The notes: generated by a model from the sequence alone, not told the origin. 64,000 bases of DNA from Bacillota bacterium (GCA_050260675.1 JBLNCN010000005.1:109347-173346); one strand, 5' to 3'; shown: positions 50,867 to 59,322, counted from the first letter of the stretch. Numbers and translations are program-made.

Positions 50867-51624
<758 letters not shown>

Positions 51625-51724: not shown

Positions 51725-51754
51725 TTGACACACTCCGGTGCTCCGTGGTAAACC
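51725..51754 (+). promoter_or_regulatory. Sigma-A promoter of the Tyr T-box operon
   Basis: TTGACA-N18-TAAACC with TG extension. Confidence 0.6.
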
Positions 51755-51774
51755 CTGTTCAACAATCTCGTTTG

Positions 51775-52105
51775 GGCGTTGACGAGGAGAAGTAGTCAGG
51801 CGAGGCTGCAAAGAGAGCTCGGGGTCGGTGCGACCGGGACGGCAGACCTGGCGAAATACACCTCCGAGCCTCCGGTTGAACCCGGTCCGGCATGTTAAGG
51901 CATCCAGCGCGGCTGCGCGGCAAGGATGCAAGTAGCCGACGGAAGTAGACTCAGGCGGACCTTCCACCGTTACAAGGAAGAGGGCATCGCTTCCCTGCCT
52001 GCAGCAGAACGAAGCCGTGTCCTATGAGCGGGTCTTCCGACCAAAAAGGGTGGTACCGCGGGCCACAACCCCGTCCCTTCTGAGGGACAGGGGCTTTTTG
52101 TTTTG
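51775..52105 (+). ncRNA. T-box riboswitch, specifier UAC (Tyr)
   Basis: Stem I with AGTAG and AGAGAG motifs, specifier loop GAAA-TAC-A-CCTC (TAC at 51857-51859), CCGTTA box, T-box AAGGGTGGTACCGCG (52026-52040), terminator CCCCGTCCCT/AGGGACAGGGG plus T-tract. Confidence 0.9.
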
Positions 52106-52170
52106 AAGAGGGCGCTCATCTCACCTGCTTTCGACCGGCAAGAGATTGTTCAAGAAGGGGTGAGATAGTC

Positions 52171-53565
52171 ATGAGAAAAGAGCCGACGTTAGCGCAGGCC
52201 GCCCTGCTCTTTGGAGCATCGGTGGCGACGGTGGTGCTGGGGCTGCGACTCAAGGCAGGGATGCAGCTGCCGGTGCTGTTGGGAGTCGCTGTCGCCGCAA
52301 TAGGTGCGCGGATGCTCGGTATCCGTTGGCCCAAGATCCAGGCCGCGATGTTCTCCGGGGTCACTGATGGGATGCCAGCAGTGTCCATCCTGCTCCTGGT
52401 TGGGGCAACCATCGGGCTGTGGATTGCGGGGGGCGCGATCCCCACGATGATCTGGTACGGTCTCAAGTGGCTAAATCCGTCGACTCTAGTGCCCGCGGCA
52501 TGCATTTTGACCGCGCTTGTTGCATCGGCAACCGGGACGTCCTTCGGTACCATCGCTACCATAGGGTTGGCGCTGATGGGGATCGGGGAGGCATCGGGGG
52601 TCCCTGCACCGCTGCTCGCGGGCGCAATCGTGTCGGGAGCCTACTTTGGAGACAAGATGTCGCCTATGTCGGATACCACGAACGTGGCGCCTGCCGTCTC
52701 CGGAGCCACGCTCTACGAGCACATTTCCTCAATGGTGGCGACTACGCTTCCGTCGCTCCTACTGGCCGTGGCGGGATTCTGGGTACTCGGCAGAACGGCC
52801 GCCCCGCCTTCCACCGGAGTTGAGGCCATGCTGGCCCACCGGGCGACGCTGGAGAGCGCCTTCAGACTGGGTCCGCTGACGCTCATACCGGTACTTACGC
52901 TGGCGATCTTGTCGATCAGGAAAGTCCCCGCAGTGCCCGCCCTTGCGACGTCCCTGGTGGTATCCGCGATAACTGTCATGGCCGTGCAGGGAATGGGCAT
53001 CCTCCCCATCGCGAAGATCGCGTCGGATGGGTTTGTGTCGAAGACCGGCAGCCCCATGTTCGACAGCCTTCTGACCAGAGGCGGGGTCATGGCTATGATG
53101 CCGACGGTCCTGCTCATCATCGGAGCGACAGCCATGGGCGGCGTGCTCAAAGAATCTGGAGCGCCTGAACGGTTGGTCAAGGAGGTCCTGGCCCGCGTGA
53201 AGAGCGCCGGGGGCCTCGTCATCTCCGTCATTTCGGCCTGCTACCTTACCCTATTGGCATCGGGCAACCAGATGCTCGCCATCATCCTGCCCGGGCAGGC
53301 CTTCAAGGAAGCCTTCCCGAGGAGGGGCATCCATCCCAAAGTGCTTTCACGGACTTTGGAGGATGCGGGAACTCTCGGCGCACCCCTCGTTCCGTGGAGC
53401 ACAGCCTCCCTGTTCATCTACGGCGTGCTCAAAGTGCCTGCCACCGCGTATGCGCGATACGCCCTATTGAACTGGATGGTCCCCATCGTGGCGATCGGGT
53501 ACGCGCTCACAGGAATGTTTCTATGGAAAGAGAAGAATGAGACAAAAGAGGAGGATGTCAAGTGA
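52171..53565 (+). CDS. NhaC-family transporter, probable tyrosine (TyrT-like) permease
   Basis: GTSFGTIATIG, GAIVSGAYFGDKMSPMSDTT, LSRTLED.GT...LVPW NhaC signatures; Tyr T-box upstream. Confidence 0.88.
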   Translation: MRKEPTLAQAALLFGASVATVVLGLRLKAGMQLPVLLGVAVAAIGARMLGIRWPKIQAAMFSGVTDGMPAVSILLLVGATIGLWIAGGAIPTMIWYGLKWLNPSTLVPAACILTALVASATGTSFGTIATIGLALMGIGEASGVPAPLLAGAIVSGAYFGDKMSPMSDTTNVAPAVSGATLYEHISSMVATTLPSLLLAVAGFWVLGRTAAPPSTGVEAMLAHRATLESAFRLGPLTLIPVLTLAILSIRKVPAVPALATSLVVSAITVMAVQGMGILPIAKIASDGFVSKTGSPMFDSLLTRGGVMAMMPTVLLIIGATAMGGVLKESGAPERLVKEVLARVKSAGGLVISVISACYLTLLASGNQMLAIILPGQAFKEAFPRRGIHPKVLSRTLEDAGTLGAPLVPWSTASLFIYGVLKVPATAYARYALLNWMVPIVAIGYALTGMFLWKEKNETKEEDVK

Positions 53566-54536
53566 TCATCGACGTACACAACCACTTTTACCCCAAGGCC
53601 TACCTGGACGCTCTGAAGAAGGGCGACTGCGTGGCAAAGGCGGGCCAGGACGGGTCAGGGAACCTGCTGGTCATCTATGAGGGCGACTTCAACGTGGTGG
53701 ATCGCGGGCACGCCGACGAGAACTTCCGCCTGGAGGAGATCAAGCGCCACGGCATCGACCTGCAAGTGCTCACGATGACCACTCCCGGCGTCCACATCGA
53801 GGAGAAGTCCCGGGGGATCGAGCTGGCCAGGGCATCCAACGAAGGTTTCGCCGAGATCGTGAAAGCGAGCCGCGGGCACTACAAGGCTCTGGCTGCCCTG
53901 CCGCTGCAGTCCCCGGAGGACGCAGCCGCCGAGCTCACCCACGCCGTAAAGAACCTGGGACTTGCAGGCGGCACCGTGTTCACCAACGTGAACGGCAAGA
54001 CGCTTGACCTCCCCGAGTTTGAGCCTCTCCTCGCTGCGGCTCAAGAACTGGACGTCCCCCTGTTCATACACCCGACGACTCCGGTTCCGGCCGACTCCTA
54101 TCTGGACTACAGGCTTTCCGCGGCTGTGGGGTTCTGTTTCGATACGACCATCCTGGTATCACGCCTGATCTTCTCGGGAACGCTGGACCGGTTCCCGCGG
54201 CTGAAACTGGTGGCCTCGCACCTGGGCGGCACTCTCCCCTACCTGTTCGAGCGCCTGGACAGGAGCTACATCGCGTATCCCGAGTGCAAGAAGGTCCAGG
54301 GCCTGCCATCCGACTATCTGAAGAAGATCTTCTACGACTGCGTCCTGTTCGACCCGCGGACCGTCGCTTACGCCATCGACGTCTTCGGGGCCAGCCAGTT
54401 CATGGTGGGGAGCGATTACCCGCACCAGATCGGCAGCCTGGCCAAGGCGGTCCGGGTGATCGAGGACCTGCCGCTGGCCAATGAAGTGAAGAACCAGATC
54501 TTCGGAGCCAACGCTCGCAGGGTGTTCAAGATCTAG
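53562..54536 (+). CDS. Amidohydrolase-2 family metalloenzyme (ACMSD/LigW/aromatic acid decarboxylase-like)
   Basis: IIDVHNH (HxH), LFIHP, ASHLGGTLPY, GSDYPH, IFGANARR. Confidence 0.85.
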   Translation: MIIDVHNHFYPKAYLDALKKGDCVAKAGQDGSGNLLVIYEGDFNVVDRGHADENFRLEEIKRHGIDLQVLTMTTPGVHIEEKSRGIELARASNEGFAEIVKASRGHYKALAALPLQSPEDAAAELTHAVKNLGLAGGTVFTNVNGKTLDLPEFEPLLAAAQELDVPLFIHPTTPVPADSYLDYRLSAAVGFCFDTTILVSRLIFSGTLDRFPRLKLVASHLGGTLPYLFERLDRSYIAYPECKKVQGLPSDYLKKIFYDCVLFDPRTVAYAIDVFGASQFMVGSDYPHQIGSLAKAVRVIEDLPLANEVKNQIFGANARRVFKI

Positions 54537-54583
54537 CGCACCTGGTAGCTCACCTGGAGCGGGCTTCCGCAGGTCATGCTCTT

Positions 54584-54618
54584 ACGGGATCCGGGGGCGG
54601 GGCGCTCCCGGATCCCGT
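54584..54618. other. Strong intercistronic hairpin without U-tract
   Basis: 12-bp IR ACGGGATCCGGG / CCCGGATCCCGT. Confidence 0.55.
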
Positions 54619-54637
54619 CGGCGAGGAGGAGACCGCC

Positions 54638-55627
54638 TTGATCACAATCCGCGACATCATGCGCGCCAGAGACGGCATTTCCCGCCACGTGCTGCGAACG
54701 CCCATGGTTCTTTCCGATTACCTATCGGATGTGACCGGCGCCACCGTCCATCTCAAACTTGAGTGCCTCCAGCGGCTGAACTCCTTCAAGGTCCGCGGGG
54801 CTATGAACAAGTTCCTCTCCCTAACCCGTGACGAGCGGGAGAAGGGCGTACTGGCCGTCTCATCCGGCAATCACGGTGCTGCGGTGAGCTATTGCGCCAA
54901 GATGCTGGGGGTTACCGCCGATGTCTTCGTCCCTGCCGGCACGCCTGCCGCCAAGCTGGACAAGATACGCAGGTACGGGGCCAATCTCCATATCGAGGGC
55001 GCGACGTATGACGAGTCTCACGCCCTGGCCAAGGCGTACTTATCCAGGACGGACAAAGTCTACGTGGACCCCGCCTCAGACGAGGTCGCGATCGCGGGAC
55101 ACGGGACTATCGGGCTCGAGATTGTGGAAGACCTGCCGAGGGTGGACGCTGTCCTGGTGCCTGTGGGAGGCGGAGGGCTCATCACCGGCGTCAGCCTTGC
55201 CTCCAAGGCGATGCACCCGGTCAAGGTGATCGGCGTTCAGACCGAGGCCTGCCCCGCGATGCTGGCAGCGCTGGAGGACAAGACGTTCTACGAGGACTAC
55301 CCGTCCAAGCCATCCATCTGTGATGCCGTCGTCGGCGGCATAGGCGAGATAGGCTACACCTACGCCGAGAAGTGCATCGACCAGGTGGTTACCGCAAGCG
55401 AGGGCGCGGTCCGGGAGGCCATGGTGGAGCTGCTCCGCAGGGACAAGGTAGTGGCTGAGCCGTCGGGCGCCCTGGGAGTTGCCTACCTGCTGGAGCACCC
55501 CGACGAGTTCGCGGGTATGAACGTGGCTGTAGTCGTGTCAGGCGGCAACGTCGACTTTGGGCTGCTGCGGAACACGCTTGCGGCGTTTGCCGACAAGTCG
55601 AGAGGGCTGGGCCAGCCGCCGATCTAG
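54638..55627 (+). CDS. PLP fold-type II ammonia-lyase/racemase (threonine/serine dehydratase family, no ACT domain)
   Basis: KLECLQRLNSFKVRGA (PLP Lys), SSGNHG, PVGGGGL, EPSGA, VVSGGNVD. Confidence 0.9.
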   Translation: MITIRDIMRARDGISRHVLRTPMVLSDYLSDVTGATVHLKLECLQRLNSFKVRGAMNKFLSLTRDEREKGVLAVSSGNHGAAVSYCAKMLGVTADVFVPAGTPAAKLDKIRRYGANLHIEGATYDESHALAKAYLSRTDKVYVDPASDEVAIAGHGTIGLEIVEDLPRVDAVLVPVGGGGLITGVSLASKAMHPVKVIGVQTEACPAMLAALEDKTFYEDYPSKPSICDAVVGGIGEIGYTYAEKCIDQVVTASEGAVREAMVELLRRDKVVAEPSGALGVAYLLEHPDEFAGMNVAVVVSGGNVDFGLLRNTLAAFADKSRGLGQPPI

Positions 55628-55732: not shown

Positions 55733-55746
55733 CCTGGCAATATCCA

Positions 55747-56048
55747 GCGATGACGGGGACGAGTAGGAGTCTACCAGGGTCAAAGAGAGCCGGCGGCGGT
55801 GGGATGCCGGTACCAGGGCACTCGCGAAAATCACCCCTGAGCTGAAGGCCGAACCGTGAGTAGGCCGACCGCTTTGCCCCCGTTAGAGGGCACAAAAGTG
55901 AGCCTGCCGGCCGTAGATGGCGCCCGCGTCGCCCCGTGAGGCCCTGGGTGTTCAAGCCTCAATCGAGCGAGTCCAGCAAGCGAGTCCGGGCAGGCTAAGC
56001 TGGGTGGTACCGCGACCCAAGGTCGTCCCATGAGGACGCCTTTTTTGT
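55747..56048 (+). ncRNA. T-box riboswitch, specifier AUC (Ile)
   Basis: Stem I GCGATGACGGGG...AGAGAGCC...GAAA-ATC-A-CCCC (ATC at 55830-55832), CCGTTA box, T-box CTGGGTGGTACCGCG, terminator with T-tract directly before ileS. Confidence 0.92.
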
Positions 56049-56067: not shown

Positions 56068-59000
56068 ATGGGCAGGTTTAGAGAGGTTGACCCCAAACGG
56101 CCGGTGAATGACGCCGAGAACGCCGTCTTGCAGTACTGGCGCGACAACGATATCCCGACCAAGAGCGTCACAGAGCGTGAGGGCAGGCCCGAGTGGATCT
56201 TCTACGAAGGTCCGCCTACGGCCAACGGTCGTCCGGGTATCCACCACGTGCTCTCCAGGATGCTGAAGGACGTCGCCTGCCGCTACAAGACCATGCAGGG
56301 CTATCAGGTCCGGCGGAAGGCAGGATGGGATACTCACGGACTTCCTGTCGAGCTTGAGGTCGAGAAGAAACTCGGGCTTTCGTCCAAACCCGAGATCGAA
56401 GAGTACGGCATCGAAGAGTTCAACAGACAGTGCCGCGAGTCGGTCTTCAACTACCTCAAGGAGTGGCGGGAACTCACTGAGCGTATCGGCTACTGGATTG
56501 ACATGGACCGTCCCTACATGACCCTGTTCAACGAGTATGTTGAGACCGAGTGGTGGATCCTGAAGAAGTACTTCGACGCGGGCCTCATCTACGAAGGCCA
56601 TAAGGTCATGCCCTACTGCCCCCGCTGCGGGACCCCCCTGGCCTCCCACGAAGTGGCGCAGGGCTACGAGGATGAGACAATCGACTCCATCTACGTGAAG
56701 ATCAAGGTCAAGGGTAAGGACGAGTACCTGCTCATATGGACCACCACGCCCTGGACGCTGCCCTCCAACGTGGGCATCGCCGTGAACCCCGAAAACACCT
56801 ACGTGCGGGCCCGCAAGGGCGACGAGGTGCTAATCGTGGTCAAGGAGCGAGTAGTTCCCCTCCTGGGCGAAGATGCCGAGATCCTCGAAGAGTTTCCGGG
56901 CAAAGCGCTTGAGTATCTGGAGTACGAGCCGGTCTTCCCCTTTGCGGAGAAAGCGATGCCGGCCGGGTCAAAGGCGTTTTTCGTGACCCTGGCCGACTAT
57001 GTCTCCACCGAAGACGGCACGGGCCTAGTGCACATGGCCGCGGCCTACGGCGAGGACGACTACAAGGTGTGCCAGCAGTACGGCATCCCTCTCATCCATA
57101 TGGTCGATGAGCAGGGCAAGTTCGTCCCGGCTGTATGCGATTGGGCCGGCACCTTCGTCTTCGACGCCAACCCATCCATCGTGAGGAAACTGCGCAGCAC
57201 GGGGCAGCTCTTCAAGACCGAACGCCTCACCCACTCCTATCCCCACTGCTGGCGCTGCAGCACTCCTCTGGTGTACTACGCGAGGAAGTCCTGGTACATC
57301 GCGACGACCAAGTACCAGGACAGGCTGATCGAGGCCAACAAGAAGGTCAAATGGTACCCGGAGCACGTCGGCACCGGGCGGATGGGCAATTGGCTTGAAA
57401 ACCTTGTGGATTGGTCGCTTTCCAGGAACCGCTACTGGGGTACCCCGCTTAACATCTGGAAGTGCGAGGAGTGCGGGAAGCTCGAGTGCATCGGTTCTCG
57501 TAAGGAACTGGCCGAAAAGGCAATCGAGAAGATCGATCCCGAAACCTTCGACCCCCACAGGCCCTACGTGGACCGGGTTCACCTGAAGTGCGAGTGCGGC
57601 GGCCGCATGACCAGGACTCCCGAGGTCATCGACTGCTGGTTCGATTCGGGGTCCATGCCCTACGGACAGTGGCACTACCCCTTCGAGCATAAGGAGGATT
57701 TCCACAAGCTCTTCCCCGCCGACTTCATCTGCGAGGGACTGGACCAGACCAGAGGCTGGTTCTACACGCTCCTGGCTATCGCCACGTTCCTGTTCGACCA
57801 GTCGTCGTTCAAGAGCGTCCTCGTTAACGACCTGGTACTGGACAAAGACGGCCAGAAGATGTCTAAATCCAGAGGCAATACCGTCGACCCGTGGGACATG
57901 ATCAATCGCTTCGGCGTGGATGCGTTGCGCTGGTACCTTCTTGCGGTCTCGCCGCCCTGGGTGCCGACCAGGTTTGACGCCGAGGGAGTCAAGGAGGTCG
58001 CGTCCAGGTTCTTTGGGACGCTGCAGAACGTCTACTCCTTCTTCACGCTCTACGCCAACATCGACGAACTGGACCCCAAGGAGTTCGACATCCCGGTCGC
58101 CGACCGGCCTGAGATCGACAGGTGGATCATCTCCCGCATGAACTCCCTGGTGAAGCAGGTCAGGGCTGAAATGGAGTCCTATGAACTGACTCGGGTCGTG
58201 CGGTCAATAGCCGCCTTCGTGGTTGATGAGGTGTCCAACTGGTACGTGCGGAGGACCAGGGAGCGGTTCTGGTCCAATGAGTTTGACCTCTCCAAGAAGT
58301 CGGCGTACCGGACGCTGTACGAGGTGCTGGTAGGCGTAGCGAAACTCATCGCGCCGTTCGCGCCGTTCATTGCGGACGACATCTACCTGAACCTGACGGG
58401 GGCTGAACAGAACACGGCCTCCTGCCGGTCCGTTCACCTGGATATGTACCCCGAATCCGACGAATCGCTGGTTGATCCTGAGCTGGAGGAGCGGATGGGA
58501 CTGGTCATCACCCTGGTCTCCCTGGGCCGCGCTGTCCGCAACAAGGTCCAGATCAAGGTGAGGCAGCCCCTACGCAAGATGCTAGTCAACGGCAAGTCCC
58601 GGAGCGTGCTGGCCCGCATGGAGGACCTCCTGAAAGAGGAACTCAATGTTAAGGAAGTCGTGTACGTGGACAGCCTGAACGATTACGTTTCCTTCGAGGT
58701 CAGGCCGAACCTTCCGGTCGCCGGCCCGAAGTACGGCAAACTGCTGCGCTCCATCATGGCGGCGCTGCCCAAAGCAGACGCCGGAGTGCTTGCCAGAGAA
58801 GTTGACGCGAAGGGCCAGGTAGATCTGGTGTTGGATGTGCCCGGCGATGCAGCTCAGCAGGCCGTCTCGGACCTCCAGCCGGCAGCGCGGCTGGTGGACG
58901 GGAGGCTAGTCCTGAGCCTCTCCAAGGAGGACCTGGACGTCCGGATCCACGCTCTCGAAGGTTTCGCCGTGGAGGTCGAAGGCGACCAGTTCGTCATCCT

Positions 59001-59322
59001 GGACACCGAGATCGACCGCGAACTGGTGCTCGAGGGTATCGCTCGCGAACTGGTCTCCAAGGTGCAAACTACCAGAAAGAGCCTGGGCTTCAACGTCACC
59101 GACCACATCAACATGTGGGTGGCCAGCGATGCTGAGGTGGCGGAGGCGCTCAAGCAGCACGGCGACTACGTCAAGGGCGATACTCTGACAGATTCGCTGG
59201 AATTCCTTACTGCCGATGCACTGGCGTCAGTTTCCGCAGCGGGCGAGGCAGTATCCCCTGCTCAGGAACTGGATCTGAACGGCCATCCTGCCTCGATCAG
59301 GGTGCAGAGATTGCCGAGGTAG
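56068..59322 (+). CDS. ileS: Isoleucine--tRNA ligase type 2
   Basis: FYEGPPTANGRPGIHH, GWDTHGLPVE, WTTTPWTLPSN, DGTGLVH, DWSLSRNRYWGTP, EGLDQTRGWFY, KMSKS; long IleRS2-type C-terminus. Confidence 0.97.
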   Translation: MGRFREVDPKRPVNDAENAVLQYWRDNDIPTKSVTEREGRPEWIFYEGPPTANGRPGIHHVLSRMLKDVACRYKTMQGYQVRRKAGWDTHGLPVELEVEKKLGLSSKPEIEEYGIEEFNRQCRESVFNYLKEWRELTERIGYWIDMDRPYMTLFNEYVETEWWILKKYFDAGLIYEGHKVMPYCPRCGTPLASHEVAQGYEDETIDSIYVKIKVKGKDEYLLIWTTTPWTLPSNVGIAVNPENTYVRARKGDEVLIVVKERVVPLLGEDAEILEEFPGKALEYLEYEPVFPFAEKAMPAGSKAFFVTLADYVSTEDGTGLVHMAAAYGEDDYKVCQQYGIPLIHMVDEQGKFVPAVCDWAGTFVFDANPSIVRKLRSTGQLFKTERLTHSYPHCWRCSTPLVYYARKSWYIATTKYQDRLIEANKKVKWYPEHVGTGRMGNWLENLVDWSLSRNRYWGTPLNIWKCEECGKLECIGSRKELAEKAIEKIDPETFDPHRPYVDRVHLKCECGGRMTRTPEVIDCWFDSGSMPYGQWHYPFEHKEDFHKLFPADFICEGLDQTRGWFYTLLAIATFLFDQSSFKSVLVNDLVLDKDGQKMSKSRGNTVDPWDMINRFGVDALRWYLLAVSPPWVPTRFDAEGVKEVASRFFGTLQNVYSFFTLYANIDELDPKEFDIPVADRPEIDRWIISRMNSLVKQVRAEMESYELTRVVRSIAAFVVDEVSNWYVRRTRERFWSNEFDLSKKSAYRTLYEVLVGVAKLIAPFAPFIADDIYLNLTGAEQNTASCRSVHLDMYPESDESLVDPELEERMGLVITLVSLGRAVRNKVQIKVRQPLRKMLVNGKSRSVLARMEDLLKEELNVKEVVYVDSLNDYVSFEVRPNLPVAGPKYGKLLRSIMAALPKADAGVLAREVDAKGQVDLVLDVPGDAAQQAVSDLQPAARLVDGRLVLSLSKEDLDVRIHALEGFAVEVEGDQFVILDTEIDRELVLEGIARELVSKVQTTRKSLGFNVTDHINMWVASDAEVAEALKQHGDYVKGDTLTDSLEFLTADALASVSAAGEAVSPAQELDLNGHPASIRVQRLPR

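What the first reader, a model, noticed from the sequence alone, without database searches (positions are those of the whole stretch)
51775..55627. Tyrosine T-box controlling a transporter + decarboxylase-like + ammonia-lyase/racemase operon: candidate new tyrosine-salvage pathway
Seen: a complete T-box whose specifier loop (GAAA-TAC-A-CC) has the same geometry as the Ile T-box in this window (GAAA-ATC-A-CC before ileS), so the Tyr reading is internally calibrated. It is followed by an NhaC transporter, a translationally coupled amidohydrolase-2 enzyme (GTGA overlap) and a PLP fold-II enzyme without ACT domain. Established: T-boxes switch genes ON when the cognate amino acid is scarce and typically control synthetases, biosynthesis or uptake; NhaC-family Tyr transporters under Tyr T-boxes are known; amidohydrolase-2 members (LigW, gamma-resorcylate and salicylate decarboxylases, ACMSD) often remove a carboxyl ortho to a phenolic OH; fold-II relatives include serine racemase and phenylserine dehydratase. 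Inference: the two enzymes convert an imported tyrosine analogue into L-Tyr or 4-hydroxyphenylpyruvate, for example 3-carboxytyrosine, beta-hydroxytyrosine or D-Tyr. Neither enzyme belongs to a recognised Tyr biosynthetic route, and I know of no description of this trio.
Basis: partly seen in the sequence, partly recalled or inferred. Interest (0 to 1): 0.8.

Follow-up and report, generated by a model that had tools for sequence, protein, structure and literature searches.

The report
Tyrosine-starvation switch on transporter-enzyme cassette

Summary
Rfam finds a full-length T-box at 51770-52081 with specifier UAC (Tyr), a matching UGGU bulge and a terminator. It is followed by an NhaC-family transporter, an Amidohydro_2 gene overlapping it by GTGA, and a fold-II PLP gene without an ACT domain.

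The functional unit is two genes, not three. Tyr T-box + NhaC + Amidohydro_2 recurs in all 8 assessable loci of the uncultured class DTU015, always with UAC. Among 61 relatives the transporter ortholog never occurs without the enzyme. Related enzymes pair with NhaC in four other phyla. More distant ones pair with LAT-type amino-acid exchangers. In a Chloroflexota MAG a Tyr T-box precedes the enzyme alone.

The PLP gene is an ancestral neighbour of pyrR. The cassette was inserted between them in this genus only.

The genome lacks chorismate synthase and prephenate dehydrogenase, and this is its only Tyr T-box.

Best reading: a starvation-induced import-and-convert module in which a metal-dependent, ACMSD/LigW-like enzyme turns an imported tyrosine-related compound into tyrosine or its keto acid. 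The substrate is unknown, and 3-carboxytyrosine is chemically apt but ecologically narrow. Tyr T-box control of NhaC carriers is already known; the obligate enzyme partner is not, in the literature I could search.

The parts
51725..51754 (+). Possible promoter: TTGACA, 18 nt, TG-n-TAAACC (weak -10), about 15 nt before the T-box
   Evidence: Read from the sequence. Not listed by the consensus scan. Inference only.
51770..52081 (+). T-box leader, Tyr specifier UAC at 51857-51859, T-box bulge UGGU at 52051-52054
   Evidence: Rfam RF00230, 95.1 bits, E 1.4e-19, full model. UAC is invariant in 8 related loci. tRNA-Tyr ends ACCA.
52069..52104 (+). Intrinsic terminator of the T-box (CCCCGUCCCU/AGGGACAGGGG plus a U-run), alternative to the antiterminator
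   Evidence: -17.6 kcal/mol, z -2.65.
52171..53565 (+). NhaC-family transporter (464 aa), first gene of the cassette
   Evidence: PF03553 8.7e-57; TIGR00931 386 bits. The ortholog is found only next to the enzyme in 61 relatives.
53562..54536 (+). Amidohydro_2 enzyme (324 aa), ACMSD-like TIM barrel, GTG start overlapping the NhaC stop (GTGA)
   Evidence: PF04909 1e-35. PDB best hits are LigW 2e-38 and ACMSD 3e-37. AF2 pLDDT 91.7; Foldseek ACMSD TM 0.90. H6, H8, H170, H220, D285 are invariant. Overlap read.
54584..54618 (+). Very stable GC hairpin (16-bp stem) without a U-run, between the enzyme and the PLP gene; possible 3' end, stabiliser or partial terminator
   Evidence: region -62.4 kcal/mol, z -3.85.
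54638..55627 (+). Fold-II PLP enzyme (TdcB/serine-racemase-like, no ACT). An ancestral neighbour, not part of the conserved cassette; read-through from the cassette is not excluded.
   Evidence: PF00291 1.5e-72, below every NCBIfam cut-off. PDB TdcB 2.8e-59. Synteny in the sister genus.
50867..51412 (-). pyrR (context): the divergent gene that bounds the insertion site
   Evidence: NF003549 260 bits.
55741..56033 (+). Ile T-box (context and internal calibration) before ileS 56068-59322
   Evidence: Rfam 97.8 bits; TIGR00392 986 bits.

Best explanation
When tRNA-Tyr is uncharged, it pairs with the UAC specifier and the UGGU bulge of the leader, stabilises the antiterminator, and lets RNA polymerase read into a two-gene cassette. 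The NhaC-family carrier imports a tyrosine-related compound. The translationally coupled Amidohydro_2 enzyme is a mononuclear-metal ACMSD/LigW-type enzyme, most likely a non-oxidative decarboxylase. It converts that compound in one step into L-tyrosine or into 4-hydroxyphenylpyruvate for transamination. The organism cannot make tyrosine de novo, so this is a salvage route. The cassette is mobile. It was inserted between pyrR and an older PLP-enzyme gene in this genus, and the PLP gene is not part of it. Shown: the T-box, its specificity, the gene order and overlap, the conservation of the pair, the auxotrophy and the catalytic residues. Inferred: co-transcription, the direction of transport, the reaction and the substrate.
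For: (1) A genuine Tyr T-box with terminator; UAC is invariant in 8 loci whose proteins are 57-94% identical. (2) Among 61 relatives, strong enzyme hits occur in 11 genomes and transporter orthologs in 10. These are the same genomes and the genes are always adjacent. (3) The pair sits in unrelated neighbourhoods and in Synergistota, Ignavibacteriota, other Bacillota and Chloroflexota. All these rows form one clade (SH-aLRT 98). (4) In Chloroflexota locus L071 a Tyr T-box (GAAAUACGC plus terminator) directly precedes the enzyme alone. In L210 the enzyme lies just upstream of a Tyr T-box-tyrS unit. (5) In the wider family, 18 of 68 sampled loci have a LAT/SLC7-type amino-acid exchanger immediately upstream, often overlapping. 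The enzyme is therefore habitually coupled to amino-acid carriers. (6) The own genome (97.4% complete) has no PDH_N and no chorismate synthase. All genomes with a T-box-controlled enzyme lack PDH_N. This is the genome's only Tyr T-box, and tyrS has none. (7) H6-x-H8, H170, H220 and D285 align with the ACMSD metal and catalytic residues, and the fold matches at TM 0.90. (8) The same genome keeps trpB alone under a Trp T-box, a parallel precursor-salvage strategy.
Against: No substrate or reaction has been shown. The cassette also occurs, without a T-box, in 4 of 5 tested genomes that do have PDH_N, so it is not restricted to auxotrophs. Nearly the whole family lacks tyrA, so the auxotrophy correlation within DTU015 is confounded by descent. 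One same-genus genome (G002, 84% complete) lost the T-box and the transporter but kept the enzyme. An obvious, widespread carboxylated tyrosine is not known. The T-box-before-enzyme-alone case is a single locus.
Confidence: 0.55

Rival explanations
1. One reading: transporter, Amidohydro_2 and the PLP fold-II enzyme act together, for example decarboxylation plus beta-elimination or racemisation, to turn a tyrosine analogue into Tyr or 4-hydroxyphenylpyruvate.
For: The three genes share a strand and no U-tailed terminator lies between the enzyme and the PLP gene. G002 keeps enzyme+PLP together after losing the T-box and NhaC. In a distant Bacillota lineage (G437/L209) the pair is followed by a threonine-dehydratase-type gene. 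Bathyarchaeota have a 41%-identical PALP about 3.4 kb from their homolog.
Against: In the sister genus, PALP orthologs (63-68%) lie divergent to pyrR with no cassette between them, and the cassette is on other contigs; G027 has PALP but no cassette. No ortholog of this PLP gene lies next to the cassette in any of the other contexts examined. The G437 gene is an ACT-bearing ilvA, 35% identical, behind its own T-box whose specifier by position is AUC (Ile). A 16-bp GC hairpin separates the enzyme from PALP in the window.
Confidence: 0.1
2. The T-box serves only tyrosine uptake through NhaC. The Amidohydro_2 enzyme is a passenger with an unrelated role, for example detoxifying a phenolic acid or a toxic analogue taken up by the same carrier.
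For: Tyr T-box control of NhaC carriers without any enzyme is documented in Bacilli, Lactobacilli and Clostridia (PMC2494555). The cassette also occurs in tyrA-positive genomes. The known relatives of the enzyme act on aromatic acids.
Against: This NhaC subfamily was never found without the enzyme in 61 relatives, nor among the 28 best NhaC homologs of 400 Bacillota genomes. The two genes overlap. A Tyr T-box precedes the enzyme alone in L071. The coupling to carriers of two different families argues for a metabolic hand-over.
Confidence: 0.15
3. Energy or pH module: precursor/product exchange coupled to decarboxylation, as in tyrosine/tyramine or malate/lactate systems. The carrier exchanges a carboxylated substrate for its decarboxylated product to generate proton-motive force.
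For: The architecture of an exchanger-type carrier plus a decarboxylase-like enzyme is the classical one. NhaC relatives include MleN and ArcD (ArcD model 283 bits). The APC partners are LAT/SLC7-type obligate exchangers. The tyramine cluster of enterococci also combines a Tyr T-box (on tyrS), a decarboxylase, an APC exchanger and nhaC (PMC3315439).
Against: Induction by tyrosine starvation makes no sense for a purely energetic module unless the retained product is tyrosine. Enzymes of this fold cannot decarboxylate the alpha-carboxyl of an amino acid (established chemistry of the family, not tested here).
Confidence: 0.1

Closest known systems
Tyr T-box-regulated NhaC-family transporters of Bacilli, Lactobacilli and Clostridia (e.g. 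BA4353; Wels et al. 2008, PMC2494555)
   Same: A class I transcriptional T-box with a UAC specifier in front of an NhaC-family carrier, interpreted as tyrosine uptake under starvation.
   Different: Here the carrier belongs to a subfamily that is always followed by, and usually overlaps, an Amidohydro_2 gene. None of the 28 best NhaC homologs in 400 sampled Bacillota genomes had a T-box motif on either strand, and only one (G437) had the enzyme. Orthology to the published carriers was not established.
ACMSD-related non-oxidative decarboxylases of the amidohydrolase superfamily (ACMSD, LigW, gamma-resorcylate decarboxylase, iso-orotate decarboxylase)
   Same: TIM barrel with an insertion domain (TM 0.90 to ACMSD). 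HxH, His and Asp metal ligands and the catalytic His are conserved, and an Arg aligns with ACMSD Arg235.
   Different: Only 26-28% identity. ACMSD's essential Arg47 is an invariant Asn44. No NCBIfam model matches. The genomic partners are amino-acid carriers and a Tyr T-box rather than aromatic-degradation or kynurenine genes.
Tyramine (TDC) cluster tyrS-tdcA-tyrP-nhaC of Enterococcus and Lactobacillus (PMC3315439)
   Same: It combines a Tyr T-box, a decarboxylase, an amino-acid exchanger and an NhaC-family protein.
   Different: There the T-box controls a tyrS copy, the decarboxylase is PLP-dependent and consumes tyrosine, and the purpose is acid resistance and energy. Here the switch drives the carrier and a metal enzyme, which implies supply rather than consumption.
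Lysine riboswitch-yfcC-M20D amidohydrolase operon of Clostridioides difficile (PMC11477304)
   Same: An amino-acid-sensing RNA switch in front of a carrier plus a hydrolase-type enzyme, i.e. an import-and-release design.
   Different: Different switch, carrier family, enzyme fold and amino acid. It is also uncharacterised.
trpB-only indole salvage under a Trp T-box (same genome, C11:175491-175737)
   Same: A starvation-induced single enzyme that finishes an aromatic amino acid from a scavenged precursor in an organism without the shikimate pathway.
   Different: That enzyme and substrate are known; here both are unknown.

Membership tests
T-box leader (Rfam RF00230), transcriptional class | Full covariance-model match above the curated gathering score | tested here: met
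   95.1 bits against 93, model positions 1-219, E 1.4e-19.
T-box leader (Rfam RF00230), transcriptional class | Specifier codon in the Stem I loop after the GAA S-turn and followed by a purine, matching the cognate tRNA | tested here: met
   GAAA-UAC-A in the same columns as GAAA-AUC-A of the ileS leader. UAC is invariant in 8 loci. The genome has tRNA-Tyr GUA.
T-box leader (Rfam RF00230), transcriptional class | UGGN bulge complementary to the tRNA NCCA end, and mutually exclusive antiterminator and terminator | tested here: met
   UGGU pairs with ACCA. The terminator shares the strand CCCGUCCC with the antiterminator.
T-box leader (Rfam RF00230), transcriptional class | tRNA-dependent antitermination | not testable with these tools
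   Needs in vitro transcription with uncharged and charged tRNA-Tyr.
NhaC family (TC 2.A.35) | Match to the family models over the full length | tested here: met
   PF03553 8.7e-57; TIGR00931 386 bits against a cut-off of 370.
NhaC family (TC 2.A.35) | Substrate (Na+/H+, carboxylate or amino acid) | not testable with these tools
   Only inferred from the T-box and the partner enzyme.
ACMSD-related decarboxylases (Amidohydro_2, COG2159) | (beta/alpha)8 barrel with insertion domain | tested here: met
   AF2 pLDDT 91.7; Foldseek TM 0.90 to ACMSD, 0.79-0.91 to LigW, gamma-RSD and IDCase.
ACMSD-related decarboxylases (Amidohydro_2, COG2159) | Metal ligands HxH (strand 1), His (strand 5), Asp (strand 8), and the catalytic His (strand 6) | tested here: met
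   H6, H8, H170, H220 and D285 align with the ACMSD residues and are invariant in 17 diverse homologs.
ACMSD-related decarboxylases (Amidohydro_2, COG2159) | Decarboxylase activity | not testable with these tools
   Hydratase and C-C hydrolase members exist (LigJ, LigY; E about 1e-11), so the activity is inferred from the nearer hits only.
ACMSD proper (EC 4.1.1.45) | Substrate-binding Arg47 (human numbering; Arg51 in Pseudomonas), named essential in the title of PDB entry 4ifk | tested here: not met
   It aligns with Asn44, which is invariant in the family. Not an ACMSD.
Threonine/serine dehydratase (TdcB/IlvA) for the PLP gene | Score above an equivalog cut-off | tested here: not met
   Best NCBIfam hit is 299 bits against a cut-off of 496. 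The fold-II family is certain (PF00291); the specific function is not.
Biosynthetic IlvA role for the PLP gene | ACT regulatory domain and a branched-chain pathway in the genome | tested here: not met
   No ACT domain. No IlvD family hit in the genome.

The most novel reading that the evidence does not exclude
The NhaC-coupled clade of this Amidohydro_2 family is a previously unknown tyrosine-forming enzyme: a metal-dependent, cofactor-free decarboxylase or hydrolase that releases L-tyrosine (or 4-hydroxyphenylpyruvate) from an abundant but unrecognised environmental tyrosine derivative. It would define a new salvage route used by tyrosine-auxotrophic, uncultured anaerobes. The wider family, paired with LAT-type exchangers in Acidobacteriota, Gemmatimonadota and others, would do the same chemistry as a general nutrient-acquisition step.
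Probability: 0.35. Interest if true: 0.8.

Novelty: new variant of a known kind. Interest (0 to 1): 0.6.

Why it matters
T-boxes report the physiological direction of the genes they control: they switch on what raises the supply of one amino acid. Here that logic assigns a role to an orphan branch of the amidohydrolase superfamily. My search found more than a thousand homologs in soil, sediment, hot-vent and digester microbes, and no member of this branch has a known function. If the enzyme makes tyrosine, it reveals both a new reaction and a hidden pool of tyrosine derivatives that cross-feeds auxotrophs in anaerobic communities. It would also help explain how uncultured scavengers such as DTU015 live without aromatic biosynthesis, which bears on cultivating them. 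Even the modest reading corrects the annotation: the usual label 'aminocarboxymuconate-semialdehyde decarboxylase' fails on a defining residue.

Tried and rejected

(2) PLP gene as biosynthetic IlvA linked to the adjacent ileS: rejected, because it has no ACT domain and the genome has no IlvD.

(3) PLP gene as part of the cassette: rejected on the sister-genus synteny.

(4) The G437 T-box downstream of the pair as a second Tyr T-box: by position in the specifier loop the codon is AUC (Ile), and the gene is an ACT-bearing ilvA.

(5) T-boxes before the nearest NhaC homologs of other Bacillota: none on either strand in 28 loci, so I could not connect this carrier to the published Tyr-T-box NhaC carriers.

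(6) T-boxes near distant Amidohydro_2 paralogs (26-45% identity) in 400 Bacillota genomes: none within 1.5 kb, and their neighbours (uracil/xanthine permease, IclR+MFS, CN-hydrolase and others) point to other functions. A T-box further upstream, behind an intervening gene, would have been missed.

(7) 3-Carboxytyrosine as the substrate: chemically ideal, but reported only from certain Brassicaceae and a few other plants. It is kept only as an archetype.

(8) The MBL-fold gene before the enzyme in L210: it is a generic YcbL/glyoxalase-II-like protein and gives no clear link.

(9) Literature searches for T-box + amidohydrolase, COG2159 and carboxytyrosine found no description of this pairing.

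(10) tyrS adjacency elsewhere: found only in L210 among all fetched loci.


Full report
OBSERVATION

A covariance-model scan of the whole window finds exactly two T-box leaders.
- One lies at 55741-56033 before ileS.
- The other lies at 51770-52081: 95.1 bits, gathering score 93, E 1.4e-19, all 219 model positions.

In the same model columns the first reads GAAA-AUC-A-CC and the second GAAA-UAC-A-CC.

The T-box bulge reads UGGU. The genome's single tRNA-Tyr (anticodon GUA) ends ACCA. A 10-bp terminator with a U-run (52069-52104, -17.6 kcal/mol) shares a strand with the antiterminator.

Three genes follow.
- An NhaC-family carrier at 52171-53565: TIGR00931 386 bits, cut-off 370.
- An Amidohydro_2 protein at 53562-54536. 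Its GTG start overlaps the carrier's TGA stop (GTGA) behind a GGAGGA site.
- After a 101-nt gap, a fold-II PLP enzyme without an ACT domain at 54638-55627.

WHAT THE UNIT IS

I traced homologs of the enzyme and their contigs.

Tyr T-box, NhaC and Amidohydro_2, in that order, recur in every locus of the same family and order where the upstream DNA is present. That is 8 of 8 including the window. Two further loci are cut by contig ends. Protein identities run from 94% down to 57%, and the neighbourhoods are unrelated. The specifier is GAAAUAC(A/C)CC in all of them.

Record titles place these genomes in Candidatus Fermentithermobacillaceae. This is the uncultured class DTU015 of thermophilic peptide and amino-acid fermenters (PMC10215811).

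Among 61 relatives, strong enzyme hits occur in 11 genomes and carrier orthologs in 10. They are the same genomes, and the genes are always adjacent. The exception is G002. There the T-box and carrier have been deleted, leaving pyrR, 283 nt, then the enzyme.

THE PLP GENE IS NOT PART OF THE UNIT

The PLP gene follows the enzyme only in the window's own genus.

In the sister genus (G027, G017, G011, G022) its orthologs are 63-68% identical. They lie divergent to pyrR, about 330 nt away, with no cassette in between. The cassette sits on other contigs in three of those genomes and is absent from G027.

The simplest history is that the cassette was inserted between pyrR and an older PLP gene. None of the other cassette contexts examined has an ortholog of this PLP gene.

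In the window a 16-bp GC hairpin without a U-run separates the two genes.

The PLP protein is TdcB- or serine-racemase-like and reaches no NCBIfam cut-off. It has no paralog in the genome. It cannot be a biosynthetic IlvA, since the genome has no IlvD.

One caution. In a distant Bacillota lineage (G437/L209) the pair is followed by a threonine-dehydratase-type gene. That gene has an ACT domain and is 35% identical to the window's PLP protein. It has its own T-box, whose specifier by position is AUC. Bathyarchaeota keep a 41%-identical PALP about 3.4 kb from their homolog, inside an aldehyde:ferredoxin-oxidoreductase operon on the other strand. I read these as coincidence or a weak link, and I give the trio 0.1.

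THE WIDER FAMILY

I scanned one genome per species and kept the 79 best of more than 540 relatives. A tree of 87 sequences has a well-supported clade (SH-aLRT 98) of 19 rows. It holds every NhaC-coupled and T-box-linked member.
- One subclade is DTU015, with the T-box.
- The other holds NhaC+enzyme pairs without a T-box in Acetomicrobium (Synergistota), Ignavibacteriales, Tepidanaerobacter sp. GT38 and other Bacillota.
- That second subclade also holds one Chloroflexota MAG (L071). There a Tyr T-box (GAAAUACGC, terminator, 61.5 bits, E 4.7e-11) stands directly in front of the enzyme alone, inside a CRISPR-Cas locus.

In a further metagenomic contig (L210) the enzyme lies immediately upstream of a Tyr T-box-tyrS unit.

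The remaining 68 rows come from Acidobacteriota, Gemmatimonadota, Bathyarchaeota, Chloroflexota and others. In 18 of them an APC permease lies immediately upstream, often overlapping. Its best solved relatives are xCT, BasC, b0,+AT and LAT1/2, which are amino-acid exchangers.

Seventy-one columns are invariant across 17 sequences spanning bacteria and archaea. This suggests one chemistry throughout. The enzyme is thus habitually handed its substrate by an amino-acid-type carrier. In the two T-box-bearing phyla sampled, it is wired to tRNA-Tyr.

PHYSIOLOGY OF THE HOST

The genome is 97.4% complete. It has no prephenate/arogenate dehydrogenase domain and no chorismate synthase, although the same searches hit all 14 control genomes.

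Its ten T-boxes precede valS, ileS, serS, pheS, trpS, thrS, an aspS/asnS-type gene, proC-proB, trpB alone, and this cassette. tyrS has none.

A trpB kept alone under a Trp T-box, in a genome without the shikimate pathway, indicates indole salvage. The cassette looks like the tyrosine counterpart.

All genomes in which the enzyme is under a Tyr T-box lack PDH_N. This includes the Chloroflexota one, whose completeness is unknown. Four of five tested genomes with the T-box-less pair have it.

So the cassette is not confined to auxotrophs, but its wiring to tyrosine starvation is. Within DTU015 the correlation is confounded by descent, because almost the whole family lacks tyrA.

The genome also has an indolepyruvate:ferredoxin oxidoreductase alpha subunit above the curated cut-off. 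A product at the keto-acid or aryl-acid level could therefore also be used.

THE ENZYME

The best solved relatives by sequence are 5-carboxyvanillate decarboxylase (2e-38), ACMSD (3e-37), gamma-resorcylate decarboxylase and iso-orotate decarboxylase. Hydratase and C-C-hydrolase members are far weaker, at about 1e-11.

An AlphaFold model (pLDDT 91.7) superposes on ACMSD with TM 0.90 at 28% identity, including the insertion domain. H6-x-H8, H170, H220 and D285 align with the ACMSD metal ligands and catalytic histidine.

ACMSD's essential Arg47 is an invariant Asn44 here. The protein is therefore not an ACMSD, despite that label in some source annotations.

Known members remove a carboxyl from an sp2 carbon next to a hydroxyl, amino or oxo group. 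That is established chemistry of the family and was not tested here.

3-Carboxytyrosine exists, but it has been found only in some Brassicaceae and a few other plants (PMC10780875). That is hard to square with a family spread through soils, marine sediments and hot vents. I keep it as an example of the chemistry, not as the prediction.

MECHANISM PROPOSED (confidence 0.55)

1. Uncharged tRNA-Tyr stabilises the antiterminator.
2. The carrier and the enzyme are made together.
3. The carrier imports a tyrosine-related, probably amino-acid-like, compound.
4. The enzyme converts it in one metal-dependent, cofactor-free step to tyrosine or to 4-hydroxyphenylpyruvate.

Shown: the switch and its specificity, the gene arrangement, the conservation and mobility of the pair, the carrier coupling, the auxotrophy and the catalytic residues.

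Inferred: co-transcription, the direction of transport, the reaction type, the product and the substrate.

Rivals:
- The enzyme is an unrelated passenger or detoxifier (0.15).
- A precursor/product-exchange energy module like the tyramine or malolactic systems (0.1).

The last has the right architecture but not the right regulation.

COMPARISON WITH WHAT IS KNOWN

Tyr T-box control of NhaC carriers is established comparative genomics (PMC2494555).

The tyramine cluster of enterococci combines a Tyr T-box, a decarboxylase, an APC exchanger and nhaC, but it consumes tyrosine (PMC3315439).

A lysine riboswitch before a carrier plus an M20D amidohydrolase in C. difficile is a formal analogue (PMC11477304).

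I found no description of a Tyr T-box, or any regulator, tied to this Amidohydro_2 clade.

Earlier notes of this scan mention Amidohydro_2 genes inside Tyr-T-box aryl-acid salvage operons of gut and rumen Clostridia. They share no close sequence with this enzyme, and I did not test them. If related, they would strengthen the tyrosine link and favour a keto- or aryl-acid product.

VERDICT

- It is a new variant of a known kind. The switch and carrier class are known. The obligate enzyme partner, and the regulatory clue it gives to a large orphan family, are new as far as I could search.
- Interest is 0.6.

Noticed in passing
own genome C11:175491-175737 (outside the window; locus L012): A Trp-type T-box stands before a tryptophan synthase beta-like gene (named from the translated ORF, no profile search) in a genome without chorismate synthase. 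This suggests indole salvage, a parallel to the tyrosine cassette.
   Followed up: partly
L035 5942-6223 (G002, same genus): The T-box and the NhaC gene are cleanly missing. pyrR is followed after 283 nt by the enzyme and then the PLP gene, and the upstream promoter-like stretch (CGGACA...CATAAT) is shared with the window at 51575-51602.
   Followed up: partly
L045 6110-6556 (G004, same family): Only the C-terminal 152 residues of the enzyme (58% identity) remain next to pyrR, a decayed copy. L099/G026 carries an in-frame TAA. The cassette is gained and lost repeatedly.
   Followed up: no
L071 3021-10483 (Chloroflexota MAG): The Tyr T-box-enzyme unit sits inside a type I-E-like CRISPR-Cas locus, between cse1 and a WYL regulator plus cas3.
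   Followed up: no
window 54584-54618: An unusually stable 16-bp GC hairpin without a U-run lies between the enzyme and the PLP gene (region z-score -3.85). Its role as terminator, processing site or stabiliser is unknown.
   Followed up: partly
window 51867-52020 and 55910-55990: Both T-boxes carry long insertions relative to the Rfam consensus: 57 and 43 nt in the Tyr leader, 82 nt in the Ile leader. Related Tyr leaders have insertions at the same places.
   Followed up: no
window 56068-59322: The IleRS is of the long, type-2 kind (DUF5915 C-terminus). It scores 931-958 bits on the MupA and MupB models, well below their cut-off of 1900.
   Followed up: no
L208 3464-3653 (G437): A glycine riboswitch (105.7 bits, just under the gathering score of 110) precedes the glycine-cleavage genes right after the Ile T-box-ilvA unit.
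   Followed up: no
L210 2376-5766: A YcbL/glyoxalase-II-like MBL-fold gene, the Amidohydro_2 homolog and a Tyr T-box-tyrS unit lie in a row in an unidentified metagenomic contig.
   Followed up: partly
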